A stretch of DNA of 64,000 nucleotides from Haliotis cracherodii (lineage: Eukaryota): the NCBI RefSeq assembly GCF_022045235.1, contig NW_027266341.1:13392001-13456000 (forward strand). Direction: 5' to 3'. The translations under genes and the position numbers were made by a program. Numbering within the stretch: position 1 is the first letter of the stretch; each line of letters begins with the position of its first letter. The notes beneath the pieces are model-generated. The model worked only from the letters and a program-made list of their open reading frames with translations, made no database searches and was not told the origin of the DNA. This document shows, in pieces, positions 1,826 to 63,530 of this stretch.

Positions 1826-2080
1826 CCTGGGAAGATCCGGGGTAGAATAGGTCTTCAGCAACCCATGCTTGCCGTAAAAGGCGACGATGCTTTTTGTAAT
1901 AGGCGACTATCGGGATCAGGTGCCACTGACATGGTTGATGCATGTCATCATATCCCAATTTTGTGTATCGGTGCTCATGATGTCAATCACTGGATTGTCT
2001 GGTCCAGACTCAATTATTTACAGATCGCCGTCATATAGCTGGAATATTGCTGAGTCATGCGTTAAACAACAAACCAAATC
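1826..2080 (+). mobile_element. Short retroposon family C (RTE/RUDI-like head, no tRNA head)
   Basis: gaagatccggggtagaataggtcttcagcaacccatgcttg...gctggaatattgctgagt...ttaaacaacaaacc, matching the copy at 55557..55826. Confidence 0.85.
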
Positions 2081-2269
2081 AAACCTAAAACTTCACAGAA
2101 ACCTGACAGCATGAGTTTGGTGCTGACAAACCAAGGATCGTAATCAGGGTCAATCTGGGACTTAAACCTTTTTGTAACAACAATAAGCTTCAACTTGGAC
2201 CACTGAGATATATAACCCCACATTAATAACAGGAGTTATGGTTTTCAGAGGTTGGACAAATTCCAAGTA

Positions 2270-2572
2270 GTGAGTGAGTGAGTGAGTTGGGTTTAATGCC
2301 GCTTTTAACAGTATTCCAGTTATATCACGGCATGTCAGCTTAATGTGGGAGGAAAGTCCGAAGTGATGCAGGTCTCAGACGTTTACCACTTCAGTGAAAC
2401 CCACGAGAACGGGTATGGTGCTGACAAACCTAGAAACATAATCAGGGCGAAACGGGTTCGAACCCACAATCATAGGTTTCTGGCGTGCCCAAGGGACGCA
2501 ACTCTGTACAGCGAATTGTGGCACCTTAGACGAAGTAATGTTCAGTGTTTCTGTATTCAGAGAGTGGGCCAC
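2270..2572 (-). mobile_element. SINE family B (about 30-bp insertion in the A box); an older B fragment lies at about 2090..2168
   Basis: Reverse complement matches 51429..51706; (TCAC)n tail. Confidence 0.85.
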
Positions 2573-3198
2573 TAACTCCTGAAAGTCAGTACAAACATGG
2601 CTCTATGTGAATATAAGTTTTGGCCCTTCCCCATCTCTCTTGACAACGTGATGTGAAGTTGACTAATGGAAGCCGACGGCTCAGAGAGGAATCTATTCTC
2701 TTGCGTTATTCTCCACGATATATATCCTTTTGATGTCTGACACAAGGGACGTACGTGAATGCATTGCTAGTGTACGTGCCATCAATCGGTCAGTTGTGTT
2801 CAAACTTTTGAATTGCATGCACAAGAATATGACTGAAGTGGTGCTGGCTCCTTGCTGGCTGTGGTGAAATATGGTTTGTGTAGAGAAAGTGGACAATGGG
2901 AATGGAAGTCATCCATTTGCCTTGCATGACAGATCAGCTTCTGTCCAAGCTGACATAAACAGCGATCACGCACTACACTAAGTGGTACAAATTGAGTGGT
3001 AGTAAAATAACATACAAAGTCTTTCCCCTCGTGCAAATGATAATCTCTTTCCCAGAAAAAAACATTTGTACTTCCTCAAAATTAAAACGGCAAATGGCTA
3101 GAACATGCAATAGATGCTAAAATGCTTTTGTTTGGTGAGGAAGAGGTTTACATCCTGTTGCAACAGGTTCTGTTTGTTTGTTATTTGATGCTGAACTC

Positions 3199-3990
3199 AG
3201 CAATATTCCAGCAATATAATGAAGGCCAGACAAACCTACCATTGACATAATGAGTGAGTGAGTGAGTATGGTTTTATGCCGCTTTTAGCAATATTCCAGC
3301 TATATAATGAAGGCCAGACAAACCTACCATTGACATAATGAGTGAGTGAGTGAGTATGGTTTTATGCCGCTTTTAGCAATATTCCAGCTATATAATGAAG
3401 GCCAGACAAACCTACCATTGACATAATGAGTGAGTGAGTGAGTATGGTTTTATGCCGCTTTTAGCAATATTCCAGCTCTATAATGAAGGCCAGACAAACC
3501 TACCATTGACATAATGAGTGAGTGAGTGAGTATGGTTTTATGCCGCTTTTAGCAATATTCCAGCTCTATAATGAAGGCCAGACAAACCTACCATTGACAT
3601 AATGAGTGAGTGAGTGAGTATGGTTTTATGCTGCTTTTAGCAATATTCCAGCTATATGATGAAGGCCAGACAAACCTACCATTGACATAATGAGTGAGTG
3701 AGTGAGTATGGTTTTATGCCGCTTTTAGCAATATTCCAGCTCTATAATGAAGGCCAGACAAACCTACCATTGACATAATGAGTGAGTGAGTGAGTATGGT
3801 TTTATGCTGCTTTTAGCAATATTCCAGCTATATGATGAAGGCCAGACAAACCTACCATTGACATAATGAGTGAGTGAGTGAGTATGGTTTTATGCCGCTT
3901 TTAGCAATATTCCAGCTATATAATGAAGGCCAGACAAATCTACCATTGACATAATGAGTGAGTGAGTGAGTATGGTTTTATGTCGCTTTT
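3199..3990. repeat. 88-bp tandem array, 9 units, chimeric from SINE C and SINE A tails
   Basis: agcaatattccagc recurs at 3199, 3287, 3375, 3463, 3551, 3639, 3727, 3815, 3903 and 3991. Confidence 0.95.
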
Positions 3991-4067
3991 AGCAATATTC
4001 CAGCAATATCACGGCGGGGGACACCAGAAATGGGCTTCACACATTGTACCCATGAAGGGAATCGAAC
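3955..4067 (-). mobile_element. SINE family A, 5'-truncated, ends the 88-bp array
   Basis: tgagtgagtatggtttt...cacggcgggggacaccagaaatgggcttcacacattgtacccatg...atcgaac. Confidence 0.85.
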
Positions 4068-4927
4068 AATCGTCTGTATGCAGACTTGACAAACCAACAA
4101 GCTTGATAATATAAACACTTTTTCAAATATATGCTATCTACAATACAGAAACACACTTGCCTAATAGTCTGTTTGTCCAGGATCAATTAGTTTTGATGTA
4201 AGTTGTCAAGAAGTCTATGTCAAGTGATTGGCAGTGATAAGTAAGATATTTACCAGCCAATCAGGAAGCTCATGCGTCATAATAACAAACTCCATTACAT
4301 GCGTCGTAAAACGAAACACAGTGATGTATCAATTCTTCTGTTTTCCTAAAAATATTCTTCAACTTAACAATCATAAAACCTTTCCTATTATATCTTACCA
4401 TATCTCGACAAAACATCCTTTTCAAATTAGACATGGCTCCAGGCTAGGTGAGATGTATGGTCCATGAGGCATGGCAAAGCAGTAAGACAGTATACATGAC
4501 AGTGCATTAAGGGTTTCCCTAACAACTATTAGATATCTTGGCAGTGTAGAGGACGTCTGTTGAAAATATATATAAAATTTATAGTGTGGTTCTCAGCATA
4601 AACAGGAATTTATGGCAATGATGTAATAGAGGTAAGGTATTCAAAAGAATTATTACAGTTCTCCACACAGCTGTCTCATGGAATGCAGTAGCAATGCTAA
4701 TATACTGTTAAACACCCTAAAAGCACATCAGCACTGATAATGTCTTTACTAAATTGCTCCATATTTCACTTTTGTCAGTTCAATTTGCTTCTGATGGGAT
4801 CATGATGTGCTCTGAAAATATTTCTTCATTTACGTGCTTGGTAAACTGCACAACTGCTCAAATTGAGTGAGTGTGTGAGTTTGGGTGAGCGGGTTTGGAT
4901 GTGTGGGTGGTCAGGAGATGACTGAAT

Positions 4928-61167: not shown

Positions 61168-61435
61168 TGAGTGAATGAGTTTGGTTTTAACACACTTTGA
61201 ACAGTATTTCGGTTATGTTATGTCAGCTTGATACTGGAAGAAATCCTGAAGTGATTCTGGTCTCAGATGTTTACCACTTTGGTGAAACCGTAGAGCACAG
61301 GTATGGTGCTGACAAACCTAGAAACAAAATCAGGACGAACTGGGATTTGAACCCACTTTCTGGCATGCCAAAGGGAGAATCTCTCCACAGCGAATGGCGG
61401 CATCATACATGACAGGGCCTCCAGAGCCCACCAGG
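61168..61435 (-). mobile_element. SINE family B, older and diverged
   Basis: ttggttttaac...aacagtattt...ggtctcagatgtttaccactttggtgaaacc...tggtgctgacaaacctagaaac. Confidence 0.8.
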
Positions 61436-61504
61436 TCATTTGAAACAAGTCATAAATCCCAGGGATTGTATGTCACAAAAAAGACCAATATCACCCAAGC
61501 ACAT

Positions 61505-61765
61505 GATTTGTTTTTTCTTTTGTTTAACACTGCAATATTCCAGCTATATGACGGTGGTCTGTAAATAATCAAGTCTGGACCAGACAATCCAGTGATTGAT
61601 ATCATGAGCATAAATCCACGCAATTGGGATACGATGACATGCATCAACCAAGTCAGCGAGCCTGACCACCCGATCCCATTAGTCACTTTTTATGACAAGC
61701 ATAGTCGCCTTTTACGACAAGTATGGGTTGCTGAAGACCTATCCTAACCCAAATCATCACAGGTT
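61505..61765 (-). mobile_element. Family C
   Basis: Colinear with 13603..13887. Confidence 0.9.
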
Positions 61766-61988
61766 CCAAGCCTATGAATAACACGAGGTAGGTCGAGTTC
61801 CTGTCAACTGAAGACACCTATATCCTCGGGGAGATGAATCACAATGAAGGCTTCTATCACCAATGGACATGTATTCCACTCAGTAGTTCAAGTCTTTATC
61901 AAATGAAGACACATATGTATCATATTTTGTGTAGGACAACATAAGTCTGACTGTTTTTATGTGACTTCAAACCCTCATCTGGGCGGAA

Positions 61989-62184
61989 GTTGGTTGGTTT
62001 TGTAGTTTAACACTGAACTCAGCAATATATTCCAGCTATATGACATTGGTCTGTAAATAATCAAGTCTGGACCTGACAATCCAGTGATTGATATCATGAG
62101 CATAAATCCACACAATTGGGATACGATGACATGCATCAACCAAGTCAGTGAGCCTGACCACCCGATCCCGTTAGTCGCCTCTTA
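61989..62184 (-). mobile_element. Family C, 5'-truncated
   Basis: Ends at gttagtcgcctcttac. Confidence 0.88.
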
Positions 62185-63420
62185 CTCTGGGGAGAAGTGT
62201 TTCAGTTTCAAACACAGTTTCCATGAATCTCTGGAAACGGACATGAAACTTGTCAGGCTGGCGTAGATGTACTTGAAAAAGAGATTCTTAAATGCATTGT
62301 GGTTCACTCACAATGCTCCAGATACAAAGGGCACAAGTTCGACTAAAATCCACTAAAATATATAGAAGACATTTGTGATTTGATTTTACATCATTTCACA
62401 CTTTTCTTACAGAAATAGAAAACTGCAAATGCAAAATCTCTGGGACAGAAGGATTCACAATAGAATATCCCTTGGCTGGACGTACTTTCTAAGAATATTC
62501 CTGGGACAGAGCTGAAAGGTCATTCTACAAAATGAGGGCCCAGCTAAAAGAGTATGAAATAAGAGTTATTATCACCCAGTGACATTACGTATTAGGCACT
62601 GCGGGTATACTCAGGTCCCAGAGTTACTTACCATACACCAGGGAAACAACTGCCAGCGGTGTCAACCACTTACTCACTGTTCTACCAAAAACATCCAGAC
62701 AATCCACACACTAAATATTCACTGTTAATAAAGAATTTTATTGAAGAGGTCTGGTAAAATAGATTGGGAAACGGTAATCCATCTATTGCACAAATATATT
62801 AAAGTTTTGCCATTGGCTGTTGTATTGGTATTTTATGAGTGCTTCCTTCAACAACTCTTTCCCCAAAAAATAAATGCTTTGTGAATTAAAACTTTTAAAA
62901 ACAGTGAGAAAAACCTGGATCAATCAGATCTGGTATCTAACAGGTCACATAAAAAAACAGCAAGGAATTAATGACAAAAACTCCAGTTTTGTCTGAACAT
63001 TCTTTAGAACTCTAGCAGAATAGGTTCAATACCTGATTTGGACATTAGGACTGCAAGAGTTGTGTCCCTTCTCCCAGCAACATCCATGGTTAAGAAAAAT
63101 GATGAAGAAATTTCAATCATGAACAGAAATAGACATCCGAGCATATGATAGACAGCGACAGATTAAATATATGATTAAATATTGTTTTCTCATGTATATA
63201 TAAGATAATCAGCTATGATGGAGTACGTCAGATGGTTAAGAAATTGTGCCTTGAAACTGGAAGACATTGGGTAATGATAGCTGAGCCTTGACAGTTTGTA
63301 GAGAAATATTCAAGGTACACTCAGTACTGTGATCTACTAGATCAGACAATTCAGAGCTGGAAAATCATCTTCCTGATTATCACCTCACCATTCTACAGCC
63401 ATACTTTACGGTCTTTGCGT

Positions 63421-63530
63421 TGGCAGTGAGGTAGCCTAGTGGAAATGCATCACAACGAGGGCCTGGTTTGATTCCCATATGGGTACAAGTGTGAAGCCTT
63501 TTTCTTTACTCACTCACTCACTCACTCACT
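63421..63530 (+). mobile_element. SINE family A, degraded and deleted
   Basis: ggtagcctagtgg...ggtttgattcccatatgggtacaagtgtgaagcc...(actc)n. Confidence 0.7.

What the first reader, a model, noticed from the sequence alone, without database searches (positions are those of the whole stretch)
1826..63530. SINE orientation bias tracks whether the tail would present 5' splice donors to the host pre-mRNA
Seen (manual tally including fragments): family A 13 minus vs 3 plus; D 6 vs 0; B about 6 vs 3; C about 9 vs 6. The host gene is on the minus strand. A plus-strand A or B copy puts (GUGA)n, i.e. tandem GUGAGU donors, into the transcript. A plus-strand D copy puts in AG|GUGAG repeats. The family C tail, (AAAC)n, has no donor and is closest to parity. 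Inference: purifying selection against cryptic donors leaves a sense-strand bias (19 of 22 for A+D). Caveats: one locus, small numbers, and B is only mildly biased.
Basis: partly seen in the sequence, partly recalled or inferred. Interest (0 to 1): 0.7.

Follow-up and report, generated by a model that had tools for sequence, protein, structure and literature searches.

The report
Mollusc SINEs face host transcription direction
In this mollusc genome, short mobile elements inside introns point the same way as their host gene about three times out of four; this holds also for the family whose tail carries no splice signal, so the cause is likely tied to transcription at the moment of insertion rather than to splice donors in the tail.

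Summary
The tally is right and the bias is real, but the donor explanation mostly fails. The whole window lies in two introns (42.7 and 97.4 kb) of a minus-strand WW-PDZ-FERM gene. In 1.15 Mb of intragenic DNA, 509 of 684 copies are sense: A 78%, B 77%, C 69%, D 77%. 42 of 48 other genes agree. GPCR 3' flanks show 104 of 235. The donor-free family C is clearly biased, only 8 points less. The bias does not change with loss of the tail or head, age, 0-4 donors, or distance to an exon within a gene. The A/B donor is weak, and equally good decoys show no strand asymmetry. Target-sequence skew predicts only 50-52%. Total SINE density is equal in genes and controls. Best reading (0.45): strand choice during insertion is coupled to transcription, opposite in direction to human L1. 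Rival (0.3): fast selection against antisense copies through double-stranded RNA. Donors may add a small increment. My look-ups found no earlier scan note on this bias.

The parts
1..37073 (-). Part of a 42.7-kb intron of the host gene (next exon at -5835..-5675)
37074..37190 (-). Only host exon in the window (117 nt, WW domain piece) of a WW-WW-PDZ-FERM gene; the name FRMPD4/Preso-like is recalled
37191..64000 (-). Part of a 97.4-kb intron (upstream exon ends at window-equivalent 134,596)
3251..4075 (-). Family A, sense, 5'-truncated; its 3' end plus flank amplified as 9 x 88-nt tandem units
5801..6002 (-). Family A, sense, long (ACTC)n tail
14593..14761 (-). Family A, sense
17679..17778 (-). 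Family A, sense, 5'-truncated, tail nearly absent
21274..21436 (-). Family A, sense
21500..21668 (-). Family A, sense
24404..24571 (-). Family A, sense
25645..25808 (-). Family A, sense
27784..27955 (-). Family A, sense
28133..28305 (-). Family A, sense
28734..28950 (-). Family A, sense, long tail
36421..36601 (-). Family A, sense
37217..37387 (-). Family A, sense, ending 26 nt before the exon's acceptor
37660..37835 (+). Family A, ANTISENSE, full tail, about 470 nt upstream of the exon; skipped by a contig of a relative's run (X18)
54918..55094 (+). Family A, antisense
63422..63531 (+). Family A, antisense, decayed body with (ACTC)6 tail
2090..2168 (-). Family B fragment, sense
2269..2533 (-). 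Family B, sense
9256..9332 (-). Family B fragment, sense
9568..9840 (-). Family B, sense
40704..40889 (-). Family B, sense, decayed, 3' end lost
61168..61429 (-). Family B, sense
16139..16413 (+). Family B, antisense
27091..27382 (+). Family B, antisense, long (ACTC)n tail
35427..35608 (+). Family B, antisense, decayed
51428..51708 (+). Family B, antisense, with target-site duplication
6103..6242 (-). Family C, sense, decayed
13604..13887 (-). Family C, sense (internal 22-nt duplication; two HMM hits)
40422..40693 (-). Family C, sense
43132..43267 (-). Family C fragment, sense
44936..45189 (-). Family C, sense
45190..45293 (-). Family C fragment, sense
61507..61764 (-). Family C, sense
61990..62185 (-). 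Family C, sense, 5'-truncated
1823..2085 (+). Family C, antisense
26067..26290 (+). Family C, antisense, tail lost
27468..27649 (+). Family C, antisense
29816..30002 (+). Family C, antisense
51917..52109 (+). Family C, antisense
55549..55826 (+). Family C, antisense, with target-site duplication
10403..10753 (-). Family D, sense
21734..22067 (-). Family D, sense
29997..30181 (-). Family D fragment, sense
43501..44135 (-). Family D, sense, head amplified as 67-nt tandem units, 3' end lost
56111..56467 (-). Family D, sense, full length
57783..58140 (-). Family D, sense; head matches Rfam tRNA (58066-58137)

Best explanation
Four SINE families in this genome sit sense to the host gene in about three of four intronic copies and show no such bias outside genes, likely because the LINE machinery they appear to share picks its strand by the direction of transcription when it inserts them. 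Shown: the bias, its restriction to transcription units, its presence in all four families and a fifth, its independence of tail, head, age, local SINE density and exon distance within a gene, a shared target motif, and equal total density in genes and controls. Inferred: in target-primed reverse transcription a sense insertion needs the first nick on the template strand, so that strand would be favoured in transcribed DNA, more so in compact genes. Inferred add-ons: weak selection on donor-rich tails (the 8-point gap to C) and loss of same-family inverted pairs.
For: 509 of 684 intragenic copies sense vs 104 of 235 in GPCR 3' flanks; 42 of 48 genes, on both strands. Control loci with predicted exons follow those exons' strand (L236 2:11, L233 11:2). 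Youngest copies are as biased: 27 of 32 at <=2% divergence, 9 of 9 at <=1%; no age trend. No loss of bias without head (78 of 109) or without 3' end (130 of 170), and none with few neighbours. Total density is equal, 5.8 vs 5.7 per 10 kb (p=0.74), and below twice the sense density, 8.7 (p=0.015). Sense rises 25.7, 39.2, 54.4 per 100 kb while antisense falls 31.7, 18.7, 10.3 from controls to sparse to exon-dense loci. The effect is gene-level: compact genes 82-84%, sparse genes 71-73%, whatever the exon distance. All four families share 11-14-nt TSDs and a T/YC.T target profile. Six inverted-repeat (DNA-type) families sum to 48:42. Precedent that transcription can set orientation at insertion: PMC5717806.
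Against: The known precedent runs the other way: L1 is 62% antisense. No molecular step is shown here. Strand skew, a proxy for germline transcription, does not predict the strength of the bias (tertiles 76/70/79%, rho 0.15). Age-independence is also seen for mouse ERVs, where it is read as rapid selection. SINEs may simply insert more often in genes, which weakens the density argument, and part of the controls lie in other genes. Same-family inverted pairs are depleted at 0.3-5 kb in genes only (0.694 vs 0.612 +/- 0.019), so selection or instability acting on orientation does exist. Within-gene OR at <3 kb from exons is 1.6 (p=0.076). Family differences (C lower) are not expected from one shared enzyme. 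A fifth SINE with a different tail is also 12:4. The partner LINE was not identified.
Confidence: 0.45

Rival explanations
1. Insertion is symmetric, but antisense copies are purged quickly because they form double-stranded RNA in the pre-mRNA, by fold-back on nearby sense copies or by pairing with abundant sense SINE RNA; any part of the element would do.
For: Same-family inverted pairs are depleted at 0.3-5 kb in genes (299 direct:132 inverted, 0 of 400 constrained shuffles reach it), not at 5-10 kb and not in controls. It explains independence of head and tail and the neutrality of DNA-type repeats. Inverted intronic Alus pair and alter splicing (PMC2533698). Short remnants are a little less biased (13 of 20).
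Against: Fold-back alone gives no direction. Copies with no same-family neighbour are still 117 of 165 sense, and bias does not rise with SINE density. It needs insertion rates about 1.4 and 1.9 times the control rate that happen to cancel the loss. Pairing in trans was not testable.
Confidence: 0.3
2. One reading: selection removes antisense copies because their G/U-rich 3' ends mimic splice signals (donors in A, B, D; a U-rich tract before AG in C).
For: A/B/D 330 of 426 vs C with intact A-rich tail 107 of 165 (p=0.002); >=5 donors 30 of 33 (p=0.07). Pooled bias is higher near exons (227 of 278 vs 247 of 357). C is 40 of 48 sense before acceptors vs 24 of 34 after donors (not tested for significance). 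The D antisense donor scores at the 80th percentile. Human antisense Alus are depleted 20-200 nt from exons (PMC3088655). An unchecked scan note (e1-9992888) reports an antisense tail completing a real donor.
Against: No dose response from 0 to 4 donors, also in young A/B copies (15/20, 27/35, 48/61). No enrichment of tail-less copies among antisense survivors. D is no more biased than C outside the host gene (41:16 vs 141:63, p=0.75). The near-exon effect vanishes within genes. Bias is 52 of 74 more than 10 kb from any host exon. Decoy donors occur at 1.7 per kb without strand asymmetry, and C's antisense acceptors score at the 7th-8th percentile.
Confidence: 0.15
3. The endonuclease target motif is simply more common on one strand of introns because of transcription-associated base skew.
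For: Target sites are T-rich on the element's strand, and introns have T>A skew of 0.03-0.05 on the sense strand.
Against: Matrices built from 150 sites predict 50-52% sense in introns and in the host gene.
Confidence: 0.03
4. A local accident or a regional effect (clustering, duplication, replication direction) unrelated to genes.
For: Gene-to-gene overdispersion exists (chi2 76 on 47 df); 16 copies look duplicated or split.
Against: The bias follows gene strand on both contig strands across 48 genes, is unchanged after dropping those 16 copies, and is absent 4-14 kb past GPCR coding regions. Fork direction co-oriented with long genes was not testable.
Confidence: 0.07

Closest known systems
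Transcription-coupled orientation bias of de novo human L1 (Servant 2017, PMC5717806; abstract and section 18 read)
   Same: Orientation of a TPRT element depends on lying in a gene and is present in new insertions.
   Different: L1 is 62% antisense and TCR removes sense intermediates; here about 75% sense, and no mechanism is shown.
Hazardous zones and Alu orientation near exons (Zhang, Romanish, Mager 2011, PMC3088655; abstract and section 8 read)
   Same: A sense excess of SINEs explained by cryptic splice signals in antisense copies.
   Different: There it is confined to 20-200 nt from exons and acts through acceptors; here it spans whole introns and has no clear within-gene distance effect.
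Mouse intronic TE orientation bias (PMC3446317; passages read)
   Same: Genome-wide intronic bias, similar in young and old copies.
   Different: Mouse SINE variants are 41.6% sense: weaker and opposite in direction.
Inverted Alu pairs in introns (PMC2533698; passages read)
   Same: Opposite-orientation same-family copies within a few kb matter at the RNA level; such pairs are depleted here.
   Different: Gives no preferred direction; editing was not examined here.
Haliotis MESC and LP SINEs (Matetovici 2016, PMC4758252; passages and section 10 read); bivalve HCD SINEs (PMC11481361; passages read)
   Same: D has the (CACCT)n end and internal (CA)n described for Haliotis MESC SINEs; C has a non-tRNA head like LP SINEs.
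   Different: No alignment to the published sequences was possible. The word 'orientation' occurs 0 times in the first text and once (about palindromes) in the second.

Membership tests
SINE (families A-D) | Variable target-site duplications | tested here: met
   168 of 299 young full-length copies, peak 11-14 nt
SINE (families A-D) | Short, high-copy, with 3' tandem-repeat tail and a shared 3' core | tested here: met
SINE (families A-D) | tRNA-derived head | tested here: inconclusive
   One of two D copies hits RF00005 at 29.3 bits; the A, B and C copies in 51400-58200 gave no tRNA hit. B-box-like words in A and B are seen in the sequence (motif recalled).
SINE (families A-D) | 3' end shared with an identified LINE partner | tested here: inconclusive
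   One young LINE (APE-RT-RNase H) was examined; its 3' end did not align to the SINEs. Other LINEs not examined.
Haliotis MESC SINE (D) | (CACCT)n terminus and internal (CA)n | tested here: met
Haliotis MESC SINE (D) | MESC core domain homology | not testable with these tools
   Figure alignments are not held
LP SINE (C) | Head homologous to a Nimb LINE 5' UTR | not tested
   No reference sequence at hand; only the lack of a tRNA hit
Splice-hazard (U-zone) orientation bias | Bias strengthens close to exons within genes | tested here: inconclusive
   Pooled 82% vs 69%, but within genes OR 1.1 at <1 kb (p=0.76) and 1.6 at <3 kb (p=0.076)
Splice-hazard (U-zone) orientation bias | Bias depends on the splice signal carried | tested here: not met
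   Flat from 0 to 4 donors; tail-less and donor-free copies biased; only a hint at >=5
Splice-hazard (U-zone) orientation bias | Cryptic junctions at antisense copies | not testable with these tools
   Only contigs of relatives were available, and repeats swamp the joint table
TCR-type L1 insertion bias | Antisense excess in transcribed genes | tested here: not met
   Sense excess vs 62% antisense
FRMPD4/Preso-like host gene (name recalled) | WW-PDZ-FERM architecture in collinear exons | tested here: inconclusive
   FERM_M E=7e-9; WW E=0.001, under cut-off for the 38-aa exon; PDZ seen by eye only, no Pfam hit for the half-domain exon; orthology not tested

The most novel reading that the evidence does not exclude
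A mollusc LINE/SINE system reads the direction of host transcription and primes reverse transcription on the template strand, giving a 3:1 to 5:1 sense bias at insertion, the reverse of human L1, so that SINE orientation marks the strand of unannotated transcription units.
Probability: 0.4. Interest if true: 0.75.

Novelty: new variant of a known kind. Interest (0 to 1): 0.48.

Why it matters
Orientation bias of intronic retroelements is well known from mammals, where in the papers read it is antisense or limited to exon edges. A whole-intron 3:1 sense bias across five SINE families is stronger and opposite; six paper searches listed no such report for molluscs, though the library lacks most subscription papers. 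If it is set at insertion, it points to an undescribed link between TPRT and transcription. If it is selection, it shows that most antisense SINE insertions are harmful even deep in 100-kb introns. Population data can separate the two. In practice, about 6 copies per 10 kb give a strand marker for annotation.

Tried and rejected
Poly(A)-signal cost to sense C copies as the reason for C's lower bias: C tails containing AATAAA are 11 of 13 sense, so rejected. Head-on Pol III promoter: head-less copies are 78 of 109 sense vs 235 of 311 with head. Target-motif skew: predicts 50-52%. Majority-rule amplification by neighbours: no density dependence. Strand skew as a proxy for germline transcription: uninformative. 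Partner LINE: one family examined, no shared 3' end; LINE orientation in my sample had too few hits (3 intragenic by tblastn, 7 by blastn, most of the latter in the LINE's flank). (GTAA)n-tail test: only 2 intragenic cases. Sequencing runs: no RNA holder listed on record; runs are guessed RNA from relatives, used only for exon joints. Cryptic junctions could not be read from contigs. Rows left out of the orientation counts: 22 of 60 PDZ/C2 small loci (overlap with other loci), all 30 fn3 loci (mostly one gene, overlapping), all 60 kinase and ion-channel small loci and 2 myosin loci (many are long single exons whose flanks may not be intronic); these served only to train splice and coding models. 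One C2 span was skipped as possibly two genes. Twenty planned kinase-centred stretches were not obtained, so that class has 11 loci. No full-length homolog of the host protein was retrieved.

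
Full report
1. Observation. Four dispersed families were recovered from the window with real copies as queries and with profile HMMs trimmed of their tails. The raw HMM tally is A 14 minus/4 plus, B 6/4, C 9/6, D 7/0. A+D at 19 of 22 is non-random (p=0.0009), but the contrast with C is not significant in the window (p=0.12).

2. Host gene. The window is G000:C78:13392001-13456000. It holds one exon, 37074-37190 on the minus strand, with a weak WW match. In 100 kb fetched on each side, collinear minus-strand exons run from about +134,700 to -90,780 in window coordinates, one matching FERM_M. 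A 334-nt contig of run X4 covers exactly 37074-37190 and continues into the upstream exon; X2, another study, shows the same joint. These runs are guessed RNA from relatives. The window is therefore intronic throughout, and minus-strand copies are sense. The name FRMPD4/Preso-like is recalled.

3. The elements. They have 11-14-nt TSDs (168 of 299 young full-length copies) and a common target profile with T at -1 and +3 and no G at 0/+1, which suggests one LINE partner (inference). D has a tRNA head and the (CACCT)n end and inner (CA)n that PMC4758252 describes for Haliotis MESC SINEs. C may be the LP SINE of that paper (not aligned). The genus is thus a resemblance, not a tool result. One abundant young LINE with endonuclease, RT and RNase H does not share their 3' end by BLAST.

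4. Genome sample. Gene strand was taken from Pfam matches in G000. I fetched 69 stretches (689.5 kb) lying between same-strand matches of 38 genes, 11 kinase-centred stretches (110 kb), and used 38 of 60 small PDZ/C2 loci (122 kb). As control I took 40 stretches 4-14 kb downstream of single-exon GPCR matches, 20 per strand. Results, sense:antisense. Host gene: A 43:12, B 30:14, C 38:16, D 16:1. Other genes: A 97:27, B 103:26, C 141:63, D 41:16. Controls: A 28:36, B 35:32, C 27:55, D 14:8. 42 of 48 genes with copies have more sense, 3 more antisense, 3 tie; controls 13, 22 and 5 of 40. D's difference from its control is not significant (p=0.59). An exon model (173 sense vs 22 antisense calls in gene loci) found exons in 10 of 40 controls. 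There SINEs tend to follow the exon strand (16 of 26 and 9 of 31), and the 31 loci with no or tied exon calls are 79 of 178. Spans were inferred from domain matches, so a few may include intergenic or nested DNA, which would dilute the bias.

5. Tests of the donor idea. For: A/B/D 330 of 426 vs C 179 of 258, bootstrap over 69 gene labels +8 points (2-14); copies with >=5 donor hexamers 30 of 33 vs 207 of 271 (p=0.07; 12 of the 33 are from the host gene). Against: C itself is biased at p=4e-10. Copies lacking the 3' end are 27:8, 43:14, 37:11 and 23:7. They did insert with tails, so this is not decisive, but antisense survivors are not enriched for tail loss (40 of 175 vs 130 of 509). Tail length does not differ by orientation (p=0.13-0.70), and donor classes 0, 1-2 and 3-4 give 79, 75 and 76%; young A/B copies give 75, 77 and 79%. 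C copies with an (ACTC)n tail are 9 of 13. With matrices from 79 donors and 72 acceptors inferred from domain exons (chosen with a generic score, so partly circular), UGA|GUGAGU ranks at the 20th percentile and D's GAG|GUGAGG at the 80th. Decoys above the lower quartile occur at 1.7 per kb in the host's large introns, 157 sense vs 153 antisense. Pooled, the bias is higher within 3 kb of exons (82% vs 69%) for C as well as A/B/D. Stratified by gene the odds ratio is 1.1 (<1 kb) or 1.6 (<3 kb, p=0.076), and compact genes are 82-84% and sparse genes 71-73% on either side of 1 kb.

6. What else could drive it. Target-motif availability predicts 50-52%. Head loss does not matter. There is no age trend, and 27 of 32 copies at <=2% divergence are sense. 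Of 20 other repeat seeds, six with inverted repeats sum to 48:42 (some are near-palindromic, so their orientation call is weak), a fifth SINE is 12:4, one unclassified family is 0:10, and two more lean (1:6, 7:15). Total SINE density is the same in genes and exon-free controls, 5.8 vs 5.7 per 10 kb, where pure removal at a uniform insertion rate predicts 8.7. Sense density rises as antisense falls. This redistribution, with independence from every feature of the element, is what an insertion-stage strand choice predicts. Against it: base skew does not predict bias strength across 41 genes, the L1 precedent is antisense, mouse data show that fast selection can hide an age trend and that SINEs can be enriched in genes, and a second signal shows orientation-dependent loss. 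Same-family pairs 0.3-5 kb apart are direct in 299 of 431 cases against 0.612 +/- 0.019 under shuffles that keep family and block totals, after dropping 16 duplicated or split copies. This is absent at 5-10 kb and in controls, does not scale the overall bias, and fits fold-back dsRNA as for inverted Alus.

7. Verdict. Shown: a transcription-unit-wide sense bias of about 3:1 in SINEs of this genome. Inferred: set at insertion through a preference for nicking the template strand (0.45), or by fast RNA-level selection through duplexes (0.3). Splice signals as the main cause get 0.15, though a modest donor increment remains plausible. In the papers read, mammalian SINE, LINE and LTR biases are antisense or limited to exon edges. 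Searches listed no report of this for molluscs. Papers seen: PMC11481361 passages; PMC3088655 abstract and section 8; PMC5717806 abstract and section 18; PMC2911107 passages; PMC4758252 passages and section 10; PMC10030826, PMC3446317 and PMC2533698 passages; no supplements. New variant of a known kind; interest 0.48.

Noticed in passing
window 3199-4009 and 43711-44135: SINE-derived minisatellites: the 3' end of a family A copy plus flank amplified as 9 x 88 nt, and a family D head amplified as about 6 x 67 nt.
   Followed up: partly
window 37660-37835: Antisense A copy about 470 nt upstream of the exon is skipped by a contig of run X18 (a relative), so it is a lineage-specific insertion that persists with a full donor tail.
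   Followed up: partly
L293:1339-5512, L294: Very young LINE family (many of 150 listed RT hits have a 1260-aa frame; two copies are 99.8% identical) with endonuclease, RT and RNase H and a (GTAA)n tail that would present GUAAGU donors when sense: a natural test of the donor idea.
   Followed up: partly
L189:1905-1960, L164, L166, L174, L256, L040: Short orphan 3' ends (about 45-55 nt plus (ACTC)n, one with an apparent TSD), related to the SINE core; possibly extremely truncated copies of the partner LINE.
   Followed up: no
window 23983-24048 and host-gene flank (seed at window-equivalent -60976..-60669): An unclassified repeat of about 310 nt lies in one orientation in 10 of 10 intragenic hits (p=0.002, one of 20 seeds tested).
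   Followed up: no
L216:2450-2821: A fifth SINE-like family with a different 3' end, 12:4 sense in genes.
   Followed up: partly
control loci L203-L242: Family C is antisense-biased in GPCR 3' flanks (27:55, p=0.003); partly explained by opposite-strand genes (L236), but L231 (all families 0:10) has no predicted exon.
   Followed up: partly
host introns and intron sample: AATAAA is depleted on the sense strand (60 vs 112 in host introns; 397 vs 537 elsewhere; 267 vs 251 in controls). Free simple repeats also lean: (AC)n 12 of 17 sense, (ATC)n 1 of 11, poly(A) 6 of 20.
   Followed up: no
window 18248-20664, 31257-35411, 39904-40382, 59816-61153: Large intronic tandem arrays (12-, 31-, 26/49-, 11- and 43-nt units); the first is extremely G/T-rich on the plus strand.
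   Followed up: no
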